64,000 bases of DNA, taken from positions 192,001-256,000 of the forward strand of contig BK006945.2 of the NCBI GenBank assembly GCA_000146045.2, written 5' to 3'. A program made the translations under genes and the position numbers. This DNA comes from TPA_inf: Saccharomyces. Lineage: Eukaryota. The notes under the pieces were generated by a model. The model was not told the DNA's origin. It saw nothing but the letters and a program-made list of their open reading frames with translations, and did no database searches. This document shows, piece after piece, positions 9,976-16,500 of this stretch (positions are counted from its first letter, which is position 1; each line of letters begins with the position of its first letter).

Positions 9976-10590
9976 TTATTTTCTGTATCTCCACAAGGAC
10001 AAAGTGTTTTGTCTCTTCCAGGTCTTTCTTCTACCAGCCTTGGTGTTGTTGAATTTGTGACCCTTGTTGATACCTCTGGATTTCTTACCAGTGGCAGTCA
10101 AACCTCTAGCTTCACGGTGCTTGTGAACTGGGTCACAGATCCAGTTGTAACGAGCATCTCTTCTGATAGCCTTGTGTTGAGGGTCGACCAAGATAACTTC
10201 GAAGTACTTGTAAGTAGAATCTTGGTTAACCCAGTAGGAGTTCAAGACTCTCAAGTTAGCGGCACGACGACCAACTCTTTCTTCAGCGGTAGCTCTCAAG
10301 GATCTTTGGTATTTCAATTCATTGACACCTTGGTTAGTTGGCTTACCGTAAGTAGCACCCTTTGGAACAGGTCTCTTTCTGTTACCACGTCTAACTCTGA
10401 CACGGTAGATAACGAAACCTTGCTTAGCTTTGTAACCCAATCTTCTAGCCTTGTCTGGTCTAGTTGGTCTAGCGGCTCTGTGAATGACATTCTTTTGTCT
10501 GTATTCCCAGACTCTGACTCTTTGCAAGAATCTCAAAACATCAGATTGCTTCTTTCTTTGCAATTCTTCCAAATATTTGTAGGCACCCAT
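9976..10590 (-). CDS. RPL15A: 60S ribosomal protein L15
   Basis: 204 aa, starting [32 protein letters not shown]..., which is the L15e family. The antisense strand is open across the whole gene, which indicates strong codon bias. No intron is present. Confidence 0.92.
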
Positions 10591-11289
10591 TGCTGATTTA
10601 TTTGTTTGATCGTGGTTTTCTTAGATTGTAAAAGAATTACTTAAGGATAGGGAAAGAAACGTGAGAAATAGCAGTTAAATGTACCGGTGGTAAAAATGCA
10701 ATGCCATCATTCTTTGTTACCAAGCAAAAGTGAGAAATCTTGAAAAATTTTAGCACCTTTGAAAATTTTGCGTCAGCTCCAAGAAATTTCAGAAAATATA
10801 TTCGACAGCTTTAAATCCGTACATTTATCAAAAAAAGAATATAATATCATGTTTGACGATGTATGCTATGTAAATCATGTCATAATACGCATCAATTGAT
10901 ACTACAAATGCATCTCGGATAGAGACATTGTCATGATAATCGCAACACATGTCGCACCTGGTGCATGTTCTGAACCTTAACACTAAATATTTAAACGTCA
11001 TGTAGGGTGCGAGTCCATCTCATTCTTGCCCAATAAATTTTAGAAACACCCTCTTATGAAGGGCGGCAAAACATATTAAGTAAGTGTCGATTGTTAAACA
11101 CTTCCCCTTTTTTTATGCATAGTAAAAGGTACAAAGAAAATAGCGTACCGTCCTTAAATCAATATAGAAATATAATGAAAAAATAAGTGCTTTGATAAGA
11201 ATATCTTGAATACAAATTAAGAAGTGTATATTTATAGATATTTTCGTTTCAGCTTGTGTCTGTGTGTGGCCTTATATGTAATATATGAG

Positions 11290-12081
11290 ATGGAAGGTGA
11301 ACAAATTATGGAGTATGTTCAAGAGACACCGATCATTCCAAAAAGGATTATCCATTATTCGATTCCAAAACAAATGATCACAAAGCCCGCTCCCCATGTC
11401 GAGATGACGTTGGTAGCTAATACTTTTCGGGACATGGACTTGCCGCAGCATCCGGTTATCCATGATTGTTGGCAAAATAAAGAGTACTCAACTCAAAGAT
11501 ATTCAGGAAATGTGGCTCAACAGAGATTAAGTTTTGAGGAACATCCAAATGAAGAGTGTCAAAATTCTGTTGGGTTAATCAAGAGAGTGAGTACTTTCTT
11601 TAAAAAGAGGCCATTGTCTCGAAAGAATAGCATAAAGTCAATCGGTGACGTAAAATCGGAGGCACGTAACCGGGGAGAAGGCCTCCTGGGTGAAGTTGAT
11701 AATCTTAACGAGCAGAATGTCCGAGAAAACCTGACTAGTGAACATGAAAAGAGTCCTGAAGGAGATTCCAAAAGGTATGGCCTGTTCTCCTTTGAAGAGA
11801 CCCCCCCTATACAAGTGTTGGAGCAGGGCAATATCAATTCTGAGCTTTCTTCATTTAAAAACACTTCTTTGGCGGAAAACAAACGCTCTTCTGACAGCTT
11901 CGTTTCGTTAAAACCGGGTGAAGATGAACATAGCCCTTTAGAGATTAGTACGTGTGGTAATTTGACTGAAAGAGAGGATTTGCAATCTGGCGAAGAACGG
12001 TTTGACTCAGCAGCCCAAAATATAAAGGTAGCTTCGATGAAGGAAAAAAAAAAAATCTTCAAAGGGAACAAAACAGATTAA
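11290..12081 (+). CDS. uncharacterised protein YLR030W, 263 aa
   Basis: The ORF-track start at 11224 is not an ATG. The first ATG is at 11290 (MEGEQIMEYVQ...) and gives 263 aa. The stop at 12079-12081 lies 24 nt after an A12 tract. See the finding on the possible fusion with YLR031W. Confidence 0.7.
   Translation: MEGEQIMEYVQETPIIPKRIIHYSIPKQMITKPAPHVEMTLVANTFRDMDLPQHPVIHDCWQNKEYSTQRYSGNVAQQRLSFEEHPNEECQNSVGLIKRVSTFFKKRPLSRKNSIKSIGDVKSEARNRGEGLLGEVDNLNEQNVRENLTSEHEKSPEGDSKRYGLFSFEETPPIQVLEQGNINSELSSFKNTSLAENKRSSDSFVSLKPGEDEHSPLEISTCGNLTEREDLQSGEERFDSAAQNIKVASMKEKKKIFKGNKTD
12044..12055 (+). repeat. A12 homopolymer inside the 3' end of YLR030W, a candidate frameshift site
   Basis: Twelve consecutive A residues. 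The YLR031W reading frame is open from 12006 straight through this tract and on to 12785. Confidence 0.9.
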
Positions 12082-12224
12082 TCACTGAGATTATACGCCT
12101 CGAAAACATACTAAATAAGCATAGGAAGGCTGAAGCTAAGAATAATATTAACAAACTTGAAAAGAAGTTGAGTGAAACAGATGGTTTTACATCTGTAAAC
12201 ACATCAGTTCCAGTAACTCCTATT

Positions 12225-12785
12225 ATGCCGGTCTTAAATACGAGAACTTCTTATCCCAATATCGACTTTCATGGTACTAAGGTTTCTGATGTTCTAGATG
12301 CCTTTGAATTTGAAAAGCATGATGATCCCTTAAGGGATAAATGGAACACTTTACAGTTTTTGGAAAAGAGCTTTGAATCTAAATTTGAATCTGCATCAGA
12401 GTTAATCCAAGGAGGCGAGCTAGCTGCTATTAAAGAAAGAAATTTTCAATTAGCCAAACTAAATAATCTTTGCTTTCGGGTACGAGAGTCCATCAAAAGA
12501 AGACAAGACCTGGAGAAAAAGTTAAGAACTTTATCGCAGGACACTGACAACGAATTGCTTTTTCTGATGTTGGAAAATGAGAGAAGAAAGAAAAGTTCAG
12601 TGATAATAGAGTTTCTTTCTGAGATAATCAGAGAGAAATCCAAAAGATTAACTGCAGAAGAGCAAGGCTTTGTAAATCAAAATGAAGTAAAACCCCTCAT
12701 TCTGGACCTTTCTGCACGGATAAATAGATTGAATTCTATTCTAGAAACAAAAAATACTTGTATTAGAAGATTAAGTAATCAATAA
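12225..12785 (+). CDS. uncharacterised protein YLR031W, 186 aa from the first ATG, predicted coiled-coil
   Basis: The ORF-track start at 12168 is TTG. The first ATG is at 12225 (MPVLNTRTSYPN...). The same frame is open upstream to 12006, so it overlaps the end of YLR030W in a different frame. Confidence 0.65.
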   Translation: MPVLNTRTSYPNIDFHGTKVSDVLDAFEFEKHDDPLRDKWNTLQFLEKSFESKFESASELIQGGELAAIKERNFQLAKLNNLCFRVRESIKRRQDLEKKLRTLSQDTDNELLFLMLENERRKKSSVIIEFLSEIIREKSKRLTAEEQGFVNQNEVKPLILDLSARINRLNSILETKNTCIRRLSNQ

Positions 12786-12990: not shown

Positions 12991-15900
12991 ATGAGTCATA
13001 TTGAACAGGAAGAAAGGAAGAGGTTTTTTAACGATGACCTTGACACTTCAGAAACATCGTTAAACTTCAAATCTGAGAATAAAGAGTCGTTTTTATTTGC
13101 AAATAGTCATAATGATGATGATGATGATGTTGTTGTATCAGTGAGTGATACAACAGAAGGAGAGGGAGACCGATCTATTGTGCCAGTCAGGCGAGAAATA
13201 GAAGAAGAAGGCCAGAATCAGTTTATTACAGAGCTTTTAAGGATTATTCCAGAAATGCCAAAGGATCTTGTGATGGAACTTAATGAAAAATTCGGCAGTC
13301 AGGAGGAAGGGCTCTCTTTAGCATTATCACATTACTTTGATCACAATAGCGGGACGTCTATCAGCAAAATACCGTCTTCCCCGAATCAACTAAATACACT
13401 CTCAGATACCTCAAATTCAACCTTGTCCCCATCTTCATTCCATCCTAAAAGAAGAAGAATATACGGGTTCAGAAACCAAACACGATTAGAAGATAAAGTT
13501 ACTTGGAAAAGATTTATAGGTGCTTTGCAAGTCACTGGTATGGCTACCAGACCCACCGTCAGGCCCTTGAAGTACGGCTCTCAGATGAAGCTAAAGAGAT
13601 CAAGTGAAGAGATTTCTGCTACTAAAGTATATGACTCACGTGGTAGAAAGAAAGCGTCCATGGCTAGTTTGGTAAGAATTTTTGATATCCAATATGATAG
13701 AGAAATTGGCAGAGTTTCGGAAGACATTGCTCAAATACTATACCCTCTTTTAAGTTCACACGAAATAAGTTTTGAAGTTACATTGATTTTTTGTGATAAT
13801 AAACGGTTGAGTATAGGTGATAGCTTTATTCTACAATTGGATTGCTTTTTAACATCTCTCATTTTTGAGGAACGTAATGATGGAGAATCCTTGATGAAAA
13901 GAAGACGTACAGAGGGAGGAAATAAAAGAGAGAAAGACAATGGAAATTTTGGAAGAACATTGACTGAAACTGATGAAGAGCTAGAAAGCCGCTCGAAAAG
14001 ACTGGCTCTACTAAAGTTATTTGATAAATTGAGGCTAAAGCCTATTTTGGACGAGCAGAAGGCATTAGAAAAGCATAAAATAGAGCTTAATAGTGACCCC
14101 GAAATCATTGATTTAGATAACGACGAGATTTGCTCTAATCAAGTGACTGAAGTCCATAACAATCTCCGAGATACTCAGCACGAAGAAGAAACAATGAACT
14201 TGAATCAATTGAAAACATTTTATAAGGCCGCACAATCATCAGAATCTTTAAAAAGTTTGCCTGAAACAGAACCTTCTCGCGATGTCTTCAAGCTAGAACT
14301 AAGAAATTATCAAAAGCAAGGTCTTACTTGGATGCTAAGGAGGGAGCAAGAGTTTGCCAAAGCAGCCTCTGATGGTGAGGCTTCAGAAACGGGTGCTAAT
14401 ATGATAAACCCATTATGGAAGCAGTTCAAATGGCCAAATGATATGTCGTGGGCAGCTCAAAATTTGCAGCAGGACCATGTAAACGTTGAAGATGGCATAT
14501 TCTTTTATGCGAACTTACATTCTGGTGAATTTTCGCTAGCAAAACCTATATTAAAAACTATGATAAAGGGTGGCATATTATCAGATGAAATGGGGTTGGG
14601 TAAAACAGTGGCAGCGTATTCTTTAGTTTTATCTTGTCCTCACGATAGTGATGTTGTTGACAAGAAACTGTTTGATATTGAGAACACAGCAGTCTCAGAT
14701 AATCTTCCAAGCACTTGGCAAGATAATAAGAAACCATATGCTTCAAAAACAACGCTAATCGTGGTCCCAATGTCTTTGTTAACGCAGTGGAGTAACGAGT
14801 TTACAAAAGCTAATAATTCCCCCGATATGTATCATGAGGTGTATTATGGTGGGAATGTTTCCAGTTTGAAAACCCTATTAACCAAGACAAAAACCCCTCC
14901 AACTGTAGTCCTTACTACATATGGTATTGTTCAAAATGAATGGACTAAACATTCCAAGGGAAGGATGACAGATGAGGACGTCAATATATCTTCAGGCTTA
15001 TTTTCTGTCAATTTTTATCGCATAATAATCGACGAGGGTCATAACATTAGAAACAGAACGACAGTTACATCTAAAGCAGTCATGGCTTTACAAGGCAAAT
15101 GTAAATGGGTTTTAACAGGAACACCAATTATTAACAGGCTTGACGATTTATACAGTCTGGTTAAGTTTTTAGAGTTAGATCCCTGGCGGCAAATTAATTA
15201 CTGGAAGACCTTTGTATCAACGCCTTTTGAGAGTAAAAATTACAAACAAGCATTTGATGTGGTGAATGCAATTCTGGAACCCGTATTGTTAAGAAGGACA
15301 AAACAAATGAAAGATAAAGATGGTAAGCCATTAGTAGAGTTGCCACCAAAGGAGGTCGTTATTAAAAGACTTCCCTTCAGTAAATCTCAAGATCTTCTAT
15401 ACAAGTTTCTGTTGGATAAGGCTGAAGTTTCTGTTAAATCGGGTATTGCACGCGGTGATTTATTGAAAAAGTACTCCACTATCCTTGTCCATATTTTAAG
15501 ATTGAGGCAAGTCTGTTGCCATCCCGGTCTTATTGGGAGTCAAGATGAGAACGATGAGGATTTATCTAAAAATAATAAATTGGTTACGGAACAAACGGTG
15601 GAGCTTGACTCTTTAATGCGTGTTGTTTCCGAGAGATTCGATAACTCATTTTCTAAGGAGGAATTAGATGCAATGATACAAAGATTAAAAGTTAAATATC
15701 CAGACAATAAATCGTTTCAGTCCTTAGAGTGCTCCATCTGCACAACGGAACCTATGGATTTGGACAAGGCTTTATTTACAGAATGCGGCCACAGTTTTTG
15801 TGAGAAATGTTTATTTGAATATATTGAGTTTCAGAACAGTAAGAATTTGGGTTTAAAGTGCCCCAATTGCCGTAACCAAATAGACGCTTGTCGGTTGTTG

Positions 15901-16500
15901 GCATTGGTACAAACGAATAGCAACTCGAAAAATTTGGAATTCAAACCATATTCACCAGCCTCCAAATCAAGCAAAATCACTGCTTTATTGAAGGAGCTTC
16001 AATTGCTACAGGATAGTTCGGCAGGCGAACAAGTTGTCATTTTTTCCCAATTTTCTACATACTTGGATATCCTGGAGAAAGAGCTAACTCATACTTTCTC
16101 AAAAGATGTTGCAAAAATTTATAAATTCGATGGACGTCTCTCATTAAAAGAAAGAACTAGTGTATTAGCAGATTTTGCCGTTAAAGACTATAGCAGGCAA
16201 AAAATCCTATTACTCTCGCTGAAGGCTGGTGGCGTGGGTTTGAATCTAACGTGTGCTTCCCACGCTTATATGATGGACCCATGGTGGTCGCCCAGTATGG
16301 AAGATCAGGCAATCGATAGACTGCATAGAATTGGCCAGACAAACAGCGTCAAAGTTATGAGATTTATCATACAAGATAGCATAGAAGAAAAAATGCTACG
16401 CATTCAAGAAAAGAAGAGAACCATCGGTGAGGCCATGGACACAGACGAAGACGAGAGAAGAAAAAGGAGAATTGAAGAAATCCAGATGCTGTTTGAATAG
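12991..16500 (+). CDS. RAD5: DNA helicase / RING E3 ubiquitin ligase Rad5 (error-free post-replication repair)
   Basis: 1169 aa. It carries SNF2-family helicase motifs (DEMGLGKT, DEGHNIRN), a C3HC4 RING finger (CSICTTEP...CGHSFCEKC...CPNCR) and a helicase C-terminal domain. Length matches. Confidence 0.92.
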   Translation: MSHIEQEERKRFFNDDLDTSETSLNFKSENKESFLFANSHNDDDDDVVVSVSDTTEGEGDRSIVPVRREIEEEGQNQFITELLRIIPEMPKDLVMELNEKFGSQEEGLSLALSHYFDHNSGTSISKIPSSPNQLNTLSDTSNSTLSPSSFHPKRRRIYGFRNQTRLEDKVTWKRFIGALQVTGMATRPTVRPLKYGSQMKLKRSSEEISATKVYDSRGRKKASMASLVRIFDIQYDREIGRVSEDIAQILYPLLSSHEISFEVTLIFCDNKRLSIGDSFILQLDCFLTSLIFEERNDGESLMKRRRTEGGNKREKDNGNFGRTLTETDEELESRSKRLALLKLFDKLRLKPILDEQKALEKHKIELNSDPEIIDLDNDEICSNQVTEVHNNLRDTQHEEETMNLNQLKTFYKAAQSSESLKSLPETEPSRDVFKLELRNYQKQGLTWMLRREQEFAKAASDGEASETGANMINPLWKQFKWPNDMSWAAQNLQQDHVNVEDGIFFYANLHSGEFSLAKPILKTMIKGGILSDEMGLGKTVAAYSLVLSCPHDSDVVDKKLFDIENTAVSDNLPSTWQDNKKPYASKTTLIVVPMSLLTQWSNEFTKANNSPDMYHEVYYGGNVSSLKTLLTKTKTPPTVVLTTYGIVQNEWTKHSKGRMTDEDVNISSGLFSVNFYRIIIDEGHNIRNRTTVTSKAVMALQGKCKWVLTGTPIINRLDDLYSLVKFLELDPWRQINYWKTFVSTPFESKNYKQAFDVVNAILEPVLLRRTKQMKDKDGKPLVELPPKEVVIKRLPFSKSQDLLYKFLLDKAEVSVKSGIARGDLLKKYSTILVHILRLRQVCCHPGLIGSQDENDEDLSKNNKLVTEQTVELDSLMRVVSERFDNSFSKEELDAMIQRLKVKYPDNKSFQSLECSICTTEPMDLDKALFTECGHSFCEKCLFEYIEFQNSKNLGLKCPNCRNQIDACRLLALVQTNSNSKNLEFKPYSPASKSSKITALLKELQLLQDSSAGEQVVIFSQFSTYLDILEKELTHTFSKDVAKIYKFDGRLSLKERTSVLADFAVKDYSRQKILLLSLKAGGVGLNLTCASHAYMMDPWWSPSMEDQAIDRLHRIGQTNSVKVMRFIIQDSIEEKMLRIQEKKRTIGEAMDTDEDERRKRRIEEIQMLFE

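What the first reader, a model, noticed from the sequence alone, without database searches (positions are those of the whole stretch)
11290..12785. YLR030W and YLR031W look like one gene split at an A12 homopolymer
YLR030W ends with a stop at 12079-12081, only 24 nt after a run of twelve A residues (12044-12055). The YLR031W reading frame is already open from 12006, which is upstream of the A-tract. It runs through the tract, through the 143-bp gap between the two genes, and on to 12785. A single-base insertion in the tract (A12 to A13), or an equivalent slip by RNA polymerase or the ribosome, would fuse the two uncharacterised ORFs into one protein of about 500 aa. That protein would have a Ser/Glu-rich N-terminal half and a coiled-coil C-terminal half. 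This is the arrangement expected from a homopolymer frameshift, whether that is a strain mutation, a sequencing error, or regulated slippage.
Basis: seen in the sequence. Interest (0 to 1): 0.55.

Follow-up and report, generated by a model that had tools for sequence, protein, structure and literature searches.

The report
One yeast gene split by frameshift
In the S288C reference strain, YLR030W and YLR031W are two halves of one 498-codon gene, broken by the loss of a single T next to an A12 run, so this is an ordinary strain-specific gene disruption and not a new mechanism.

Summary
A12 lies at 12044-12055 and the YLR030W stop at 12079-12081. The YLR031W frame is open from 12006 to 12785.

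The main interpretation, one gene split by a frameshift, is correct. Orthologues in four named Saccharomyces species and one unnamed close relative are single colinear ORFs of 470-508 aa in conserved synteny. Many S. cerevisiae strains, including EC1118 and YJM789, encode an intact 498-aa protein.

One detail is wrong. Intact alleles also have A12. They carry TT after the tract, where S288C has a single T, so the lesion is a 1-bp T deletion at 12056. It is derived, and independent assemblies carry it, so it is not a sequencing error.

Other strains carry other lesions: A13, A11 plus a Q232 stop codon, and C6 or C8 in a C7 tract. The gene therefore looks like a polymorphic pseudogene with slippage-prone coding homopolymers.

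Programmed frameshifting is not supported. Orthologues need no shift, and there is no RNA structure downstream of the tract. Occasional slippage on A12 remains possible but is untested.

The intact protein has a disordered N-terminal half and a helical C-terminal half. Its last ~165 aa are homologous to the C-terminal domain of Epo1. Work in S288C-derived strains has therefore examined fragments of this gene.

The parts
11290..12081 (+). YLR030W ORF. It is the N-terminal fragment of the ancestral gene: aa 1-256 are authentic, followed by 7 out-of-frame residues (FKGNKTD) and a stop.
12044..12055 (+). A12 homopolymer encoding part of E252 and K253-K255. It is also A12 in intact S. cerevisiae alleles and in the closest relative, A10 in S. 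eubayanus, and interrupted in S. mikatae and S. kudriavzevii.
12056..12056 (+). Site of the S288C lesion. There is a single T here where intact alleles have TT, which is a 1-bp deletion giving a -1 frameshift.
12079..12081 (+). Premature TAA stop codon reached in the shifted frame.
12057..12224 (+). Bridge: 56 codons (aa 257-312 of the intact protein) read in the YLR031W frame. Both S288C annotations miss it. It covers the YLR030W tail and the 143-bp 'intergenic' gap, and it encodes most of the conserved helix LQREQNRLITEIIRLENILNKHRK.
   Evidence: invariant columns; dN/dS 0.38-0.73; best-predicted helix.
12225..12785 (+). YLR031W ORF, equal to aa 313-498 of the intact protein. It contains the region homologous to the Epo1 C-terminus (aa 331-498). 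Its ATG (Met313) is not conserved in other species.
11801..11807 (+). C7 tract (T171-P173), a second coding homopolymer that varies in length: C6, C8 (both frame-breaking) and C10 (in frame, one extra Pro) in other assemblies.
11061..11070 (+). GGGCGGCAAA, about 228 bp upstream of the ATG and invariant in five Saccharomyces species. It has a URS1-like GGCGGC core and is a candidate meiotic control element. This is an inference.

Best explanation
YLR030W and YLR031W are the 5' and 3' parts of one ancestral gene of 498 codons. That gene lies between RPL15A and RAD5 in all Saccharomyces species examined. In the lineage leading to S288C, one T of a TT dinucleotide immediately 3' of a coding A12 tract was deleted (window 12056). 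Translation from the YLR030W ATG therefore shifts frame after Ile256 and stops 7 codons later. The remaining 242 codons stay open in the other frame. The annotation captures only the last 186 of them, starting at the first ATG, as YLR031W. The 56 codons in between encode the start of the coiled-coil region and belong to neither annotated product. Shown here: the lesion, its derived polarity, its presence in independent assemblies, and purifying selection on all three segments across species. Inferred: the intact protein is a sporulation-induced coiled-coil protein. Its C-terminal domain is homologous to the part of Epo1 that binds polarisome proteins and Scs2. The S288C allele is a loss-of-function or strongly hypomorphic allele, and its mRNA is probably a target of nonsense-mediated decay. 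Other S. cerevisiae lineages have disabled the gene in other ways (A13, A11 plus Q232stop, changes in the C-tract). The gene therefore looks dispensable in many backgrounds and is decaying recurrently, mainly at its two slippage-prone homopolymers.
For: A hypothetical fused protein finds single ORFs at 100% query coverage in S. mikatae (497 aa), S. uvarum (498 and 508), S. eubayanus (498) and S. kudriavzevii (470), in an unnamed relative at 77% identity (506), and in S. cerevisiae. These are colinear through the junction, and LQxEQNxLIxEIIxLExxLNxHxK is conserved there. Intact 498-aa proteins are annotated in EC1118, YJM789, R103 and many other strains. All read MKEKKKILQREQ at the junction, except R103, which reads MKGKKKILQREQ. 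At the DNA level, intact alleles are A12+TT and S288C is A12+T. All outgroups are in frame. The same T deletion occurs in three other assemblies, and 103 contigs encode the identical 205-aa split product. Synteny is conserved: AICAR transformylase gene, RPL15, this gene, RAD5. dN/dS between species is 0.21-0.31 for the N part, 0.38-0.73 for the bridge and 0.13-0.16 for the C part. Independent lesions elsewhere are A13+TT in two strains, A11+TT together with CAA to TAA at codon 232, and C6 or C8 in the C7 tract. The C-terminal ~165 aa align to Epo1-like C-termini with hhalign probability 98.6%. PMC4284228 calls Ylr031w the sequence homologue of Epo1p and maps binding of Pea2, Kel1, Bem3 and Scs2 to Epo1 residues 761-943. 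YLR030W belongs to a set of 301 sporulation-induced genes, and its deletion in SK1 lowers dityrosine fluorescence when combined with dtr1 deletion (PMC3744438).
Against: I examined no expression data. Whether S288C makes one transcript or two, and whether either fragment is stable or active, is unknown. Some A11, A13, C6 and C8 calls come from long-read assemblies, where homopolymer lengths can be wrong. For strain BEM, the collapsed and the phased assemblies disagree. I could not measure allele frequencies across the species. A two-step origin (TT to AT giving in-frame A13+T, then slippage to A12+T) would place the final event inside the tract. It cannot be excluded, although no A13+T allele was seen. 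Homology to Epo1 is limited to the C-terminus, and the N-terminal half has no detectable relatives outside Saccharomyces.
Confidence: 0.92

Rival explanations
1. Recoding. The S288C arrangement is expressed as one protein, through programmed -1 ribosomal frameshifting or RNA polymerase slippage on the A12 tract, as a regulated mechanism.
For: A12 contains the slippery pattern A AAA AAA. A -1 shift or one extra A in the mRNA would give a 498-aa product reading KKKNLQREQ. Ribosomes slide on poly(A) stretches, and such mRNAs are targets of nonsense-mediated decay in yeast (PMC4363877). Low-level compensatory frameshifting at indels in homopolymers is a documented phenomenon (PMC5009743).
Against: Orthologues and many conspecific strains are in frame with the same A12 tract, so no shift is needed and none is conserved. 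The frame break in S288C is a derived deletion. RNA folding of the 100 nt downstream of the tract, and of an 81-nt stretch spanning it, gives z-scores of -0.03 and 0.02 against shuffles, so there is no stimulatory structure. Other strains break the frame in the opposite direction (A13) or with a stop codon. That pattern fits decay, not a designed signal.
Confidence: 0.05
2. Sequencing or assembly error in the reference: S288C really has the intact gene.
For: Homopolymer-adjacent indels are a classic type of error.
Against: The window is identical across the locus to three other assemblies (L009, L010, L011). The exact 263-aa and 186-aa products are present in several NCBI genomes. The exact 205-aa split ORF occurs on 103 contigs from independent read-archive assemblies.
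Confidence: 0.01
3. Two working genes. After the split, the fragments are separately expressed and functional: YLR030W as a disordered N-terminal protein, and YLR031W as an Epo1-like coiled-coil protein made from an internal promoter and ATG.
For: YLR031W retains the whole Epo1-homologous region, aa 331-498. The S288C-type alleles examined carry no further lesions in either half.
Against: Met313 is not conserved in other species, and no species has two ORFs here. The best-predicted helix, aa ~250-293, is lost from both products. Deleting YLR031W had no effect in the one assay reported (PMC4284228). The absence of further lesions is expected if the deletion is recent.
Confidence: 0.1

Closest known systems
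Frameshift-split or 'disabled' ORFs of the S288C reference genome: adjacent ORFs that are one gene in other strains or sensu stricto species
   Same: There are two adjacent ORFs on the same strand in different frames. Orthologues are continuous, conspecific alleles are intact, and a single-base indel accounts for the split.
   Different: Nothing differs in kind. Particular to this case, the lesion sits right next to, but not within, a coding A12 tract. Several other lineages carry independent lesions in the same gene. I found no paper in the searchable library that names this pair as a split gene.
Epo1 (YMR124W), a polarisome-associated tether between the cortical ER and the bud tip
   Same: The last ~165 residues align with the Epo1 C-terminal region at hhalign probability 98.6%. 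That Epo1 region contains coiled coils CC2 and CC3, which bind Pea2, Kel1, Bem3 and Scs2 (PMC4284228). From my own knowledge, both genes lie next to an RPL15 paralogue (RPL15A here, RPL15B near EPO1), which fits an origin in the whole-genome duplication.
   Different: This protein is about half the length (498 against ~940 aa). The N-terminal 330 residues have no detectable similarity to Epo1. Expression appears to be sporulation-specific (PMC3744438). Deleting YLR031W gave no ER-tethering phenotype, but I infer that the strain tested was S288C-derived, so the gene would already have been broken.
Programmed -1 frameshifting, transcriptional slippage, and poly(A)-track attenuation
   Same: The coding run of 12 A fits the class of sequence on which ribosomes slide and polymerases can slip (PMC4363877, PMC5009743).
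   Different: There is no conserved requirement for a shift and no stimulatory RNA structure. Any slippage here would be adventitious.

Membership tests
Frameshift-split ORF (strain-specific disrupted gene) | Two adjacent same-strand ORFs in different frames, with the downstream frame already open upstream of the first ORF's stop | tested here: met
   The YLR031W frame is open from 12006, and the YLR030W stop is at 12079-12081.
Frameshift-split ORF (strain-specific disrupted gene) | Orthologues in related species are a single colinear ORF in conserved synteny | tested here: met
   ORFs are 470-508 aa and lie between RPL15 and RAD5.
Frameshift-split ORF (strain-specific disrupted gene) | Conspecific intact alleles differ at the junction by an indel whose length is not a multiple of three | tested here: met
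   Intact alleles are A12+TT and S288C is A12+T.
Frameshift-split ORF (strain-specific disrupted gene) | The lesion is reproducible and not a sequencing error | tested here: met
   Three other assemblies carry it, and 103 contigs encode the same split product.
Programmed -1 ribosomal frameshift or transcriptional-slippage recoding site | Slippery sequence at the frame junction | tested here: met
   A12 at 12044-12055.
Programmed -1 ribosomal frameshift or transcriptional-slippage recoding site | Stimulatory RNA structure a few nucleotides downstream | tested here: not met
   Minimum free energies are -7.4 and -6.5 kcal/mol, with z-scores of -0.03 and 0.02 against shuffles.
Programmed -1 ribosomal frameshift or transcriptional-slippage recoding site | The two-frame arrangement is conserved in orthologues | tested here: not met
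   All orthologues and many strains are in frame.
Programmed -1 ribosomal frameshift or transcriptional-slippage recoding site | A trans-frame protein product is detected | not testable with these tools
   This needs mass spectrometry or ribosome profiling.
Epo1 family | Homology of the C-terminal coiled-coil domain | tested here: met
   (HMM E-values from 1e-10 to 1e-4 against proteins of about 790-1090 aa). (hhalign probability 98.6%, aa 331-498 against Epo1-like 749-936).
Epo1 family | Homology of the long N-terminal region | tested here: not met
   There is no alignment upstream of aa ~331 in the profile-profile comparison. Pfam finds nothing.
Epo1 family | Binding to Pea2, Bem3, Kel1 or Scs2 and localisation at the bud tip | not testable with these tools
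   Only Epo1 itself was characterised (PMC4284228).
URS1/Ume6-controlled meiotic gene | URS1 element in the promoter and induction in sporulation | tested here: inconclusive
   The GGCGGC core is invariant in five species at about -228, but the full TSGGCGGCT consensus is not matched. The gene is listed among sporulation-induced genes (PMC3744438).

The most novel reading that the evidence does not exclude
The coding A12 tract, with the C7 tract, acts as a reversible on/off switch for a sporulation-specific Epo1 paralogue. Natural lineages toggle between in-frame and out-of-frame lengths (A11, A12, A13; C6, C7, C10). In S288C-type alleles, polymerase or ribosome slippage on A12 restores a low but functional amount of full-length protein, with junction KKKNLQ. 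The locus would then be a tunable gene and not a dead one.
Probability: 0.07. Interest if true: 0.55.

Novelty: new member of a known kind. Interest (0 to 1): 0.22.

Why it matters
The main value is for annotation and for interpreting experiments. YLR030W and YLR031W appear in deletion, tagging and interaction collections as two uncharacterised genes, but in S288C-derived strains they are fragments of one disrupted gene. Neither fragment contains its best-predicted helix. Negative results therefore do not test the intact protein. One example is the report that Ylr031w does not contribute to contact between the cortical ER and the bud tip (PMC4284228). Strains with the intact 498-aa allele, or an S288C strain with the T restored, are the right material for asking what this sporulation-induced Epo1 relative does. 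The locus is also a small, clean example of recurrent gene inactivation at coding homopolymers within one species. Several public gene models hide these lesions behind invented introns.

Tried and rejected
- **Pfam:** a scan of three full-length proteins found no family.
- **HMM search:** a profile search of 1.84 billion representative proteins found only Saccharomyces orthologues and the C-termini of Epo1-like proteins. Nothing matched the N-terminal half convincingly.
- **AlphaFold:** with a 7-sequence alignment the model was poor (mean pLDDT 45). I used it only for secondary structure and ran no fold search.
- **RNA folding:** folding around and after the tract showed no structure beyond shuffled controls, so I rejected a programmed frameshift signal.
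- **Literature:** searches for the two ORF names and for split or adjacent ORFs in S288C found no paper describing this pair as one gene. Supplementary tables and subscription papers were not searchable, so earlier mentions may exist.
- **Allele frequency:** I could not estimate how common the T deletion is across S. cerevisiae. Only 40 of 297 cluster members can be read, and read-archive assemblies are biased toward laboratory strains.
- **A12-to-A13 repair:** I considered it as the natural intact state and rejected it. No allele with KKKNLQ was seen among the intact S. cerevisiae proteins.
- **MSE (Ndt80) sites:** these are present only far upstream and are not conserved in S. eubayanus, so I did not pursue them.

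Full report
**1. Observation**

The window is the S288C reference. The 263-aa and 186-aa translations match NP_013130.1 (YLR030W) and NP_013131.1 (YLR031W) exactly. The neighbours are RPL15A (9976-10590, minus strand) and RAD5 (12991-16500).

All coordinates in the finding are correct:
- A12 lies at 12044-12055.
- The YLR030W stop, TAA, is at 12079-12081.
- The YLR031W frame is open from 12006, after TGA at 12003-12005, to 12785.
- The annotated ATG is at 12225, leaving a 143-bp gap.

One added base in the tract gives a 498-aa ORF. A frame that stays open by chance for the 73 codons upstream of the ATG has a probability of about 0.007, given the window's composition. Of the 19 homopolymers of 10 nt or more in the window, only this one lies inside a long ORF.

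**2. One gene in relatives and in other strains**

I searched with the hypothetical fusion protein. It returned single proteins covering 100% of the query:
- S. mikatae, 497 aa
- S. uvarum, 498 and 508 aa
- S. eubayanus, 498 aa
- S. kudriavzevii, 470 aa
- an unnamed close relative at 77% identity, 506 aa, probably S. paradoxus (the record does not name the species)
- an S. cerevisiae cluster with 297 member sequences

The alignment is colinear through the junction. The segment that S288C treats as the YLR030W tail plus intergenic DNA encodes a strongly conserved helix, LQxEQNxLIxEIIxLExxLNxHxK.

Gene order is the same in every species locus fetched: AICAR transformylase gene, RPL15, this gene, RAD5.

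Intact 498-aa proteins are annotated in EC1118, YJM789, R103 and many recently assembled strains. All read MKEKKKILQREQ at the junction, except R103, which reads MKGKKKILQREQ.

Pairwise dN/dS between the intact S. cerevisiae allele and four relatives is as follows:

| Segment | dN/dS |
|---|---|
| N-terminal part | 0.21-0.31 |
| 56-codon bridge | 0.38-0.73 |
| C-terminal part | 0.13-0.16 |

All three segments have therefore evolved as coding sequence.

**3. The actual lesion**

DNA alignment shows that intact S. cerevisiae alleles also have A12. They differ from S288C by carrying TT instead of T immediately after the tract:

- intact: GAA AAA AAA AAA ATT CTT CAA
- S288C: GAA AAA AAA AAA ATC TTC AAA

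All outgroups have the in-frame length, so the S288C state is a derived 1-bp deletion at 12056. That is not what separates the alleles.

S288C YLR030W matches the intact protein through Ile256 and then reads 7 out-of-frame codons. YLR031W corresponds to aa 313-498. Residues 257-312 are in neither annotated product. Met313 is not conserved in other species, so the YLR031W start is an annotation convenience.

The same T deletion is present in three other assemblies. The identical 205-aa split ORF occurs on 103 contigs from read-archive assemblies. This excludes a sequencing error in the reference.

**4. Other alleles**

| Locus or strain | Lesion |
|---|---|
| Two strains' assemblies (L007, L012) | A13+TT, out of frame, with C10 in place of the C7 tract at 11801-11807 (in frame, one extra Pro) |
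| L008 | A11+TT and CAA to TAA at codon 232 |
| One assembly | C6 |
| One collapsed assembly | C8 |

The nonsense mutation in L008 is a substitution, so it cannot be a homopolymer artefact.

Some of the length calls may be long-read errors. The collapsed and phased assemblies of strain BEM disagree.

Several NCBI gene models bridge these lesions with invented introns (P0002-P0007, P0023, P0034).

Taken together, this looks like a gene inactivated repeatedly within S. cerevisiae, mostly at two slippage-prone coding homopolymers.

**5. Recoding**

The A12 tract is a plausible site for ribosome sliding or polymerase slippage (PMC4363877; PMC5009743). A -1 event in S288C would give a full-length protein reading KKKNLQ.

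Nothing indicates a programmed mechanism:
- Orthologues and intact alleles need no shift.
- The break is a derived deletion.
- Other strains break the frame in the opposite direction or with a stop codon.
- RNA around and downstream of the tract folds no better than shuffled sequence (z = -0.03 and 0.02).

Low-level adventitious rescue remains possible and untested.

**6. The gene product**

Pfam finds nothing. A profile search of 1.84 billion representative proteins finds, outside Saccharomyces orthologues, only the C-terminal ends of proteins of about 790-1090 aa. One of these, P0055, I take from its N-terminal sequence to be a Saccharomyces Epo1 orthologue.

Profile-profile comparison aligns aa 331-498 with Epo1-like residues 749-936 at probability 98.6%. 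It aligns nothing further upstream.

In Epo1, residues 761-943 contain the coiled coils that bind Pea2, Kel1, Bem3 and Scs2. The same paper calls Ylr031w the sequence homologue of Epo1p and reports no contribution to ER-tip contact (PMC4284228). I infer that this test used an S288C-derived background, where the gene would already be broken.

From my own knowledge, EPO1 lies near RPL15B and this gene lies next to RPL15A. That fits an origin as a pair in the whole-genome duplication. I did not test it here.

The AlphaFold model is poor overall (mean pLDDT 45). It predicts a disordered N-terminal half and helices in the C-terminal half. The most confident segment is a helix at about aa 250-293, which is the piece the frameshift removes.

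YLR030W belongs to a set of 301 sporulation-induced genes. Its deletion in SK1 reduces dityrosine fluorescence when combined with dtr1 deletion (PMC3744438).

A GGGCGGCAAA block with a URS1-like core is invariant in five species about 228 bp upstream of the ATG. This fits meiotic regulation but does not prove it.

**7. Verdict**

It is wrong in detail, because a T next to the tract was lost and the tract length did not change. The regulated-slippage option is unsupported.

This is an ordinary example of a known kind, a reference-strain gene disruption. Database entries for other strains already imply it, although I found no paper stating it.

Its practical consequence is that data from S288C-derived strains on YLR030W and YLR031W concern fragments of one gene.

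Noticed in passing
window 11801-11807: The C7 tract inside YLR030W (codons T171-P173) varies in length among S. cerevisiae assemblies: C6 and C8 break the frame, and C10 is in frame with one extra Pro. It is the only C or G run of 7 or more in the 64-kb window.
   Followed up: partly
L008 (GCA_947369795.1), corresponding to window 11983: A CAA to TAA nonsense mutation at codon 232 occurs in a strain that also has A11+TT. It is a second, substitution-type lesion, which shows real pseudogene decay in that lineage.
   Followed up: yes
window 11061-11070: GGGCGGCAAA is invariant in five Saccharomyces species about 228 bp upstream of the ATG, in an otherwise poorly conserved AT-rich promoter shared with RPL15A. 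Its URS1-like core suggests control by Ume6.
   Followed up: partly
P0002-P0007, P0023, P0034 (NCBI gene models of S. cerevisiae strains): Automated annotations bridge the frameshifts and the stop codon with invented introns, giving proteins of 425-490 aa that hide the lesions.
   Followed up: partly
P0021 (strain R103), corresponding to window 12041-12043: One intact allele reads MKGKKK instead of MKEKKK, which implies GAA to GGA. That change would shorten the A run to 11 while keeping the frame. I inferred this from the protein only.
   Followed up: no
L003 and L005, junction region: The long A run is old. It is A12 in the closest relative and A10 in S. eubayanus, but interrupted in S. mikatae (A7GA4) and S. 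kudriavzevii (A7). A coding poly(A) track of this length could by itself lower expression of the intact gene.
   Followed up: no
window 11559-12071 (minus strand) and 10009-10596 (plus strand): Long antisense ORFs of 170 aa and 195 aa lie opposite YLR030W and RPL15A. They are mechanical by-products of ORF listing, and there is no evidence that they are genes.
   Followed up: no
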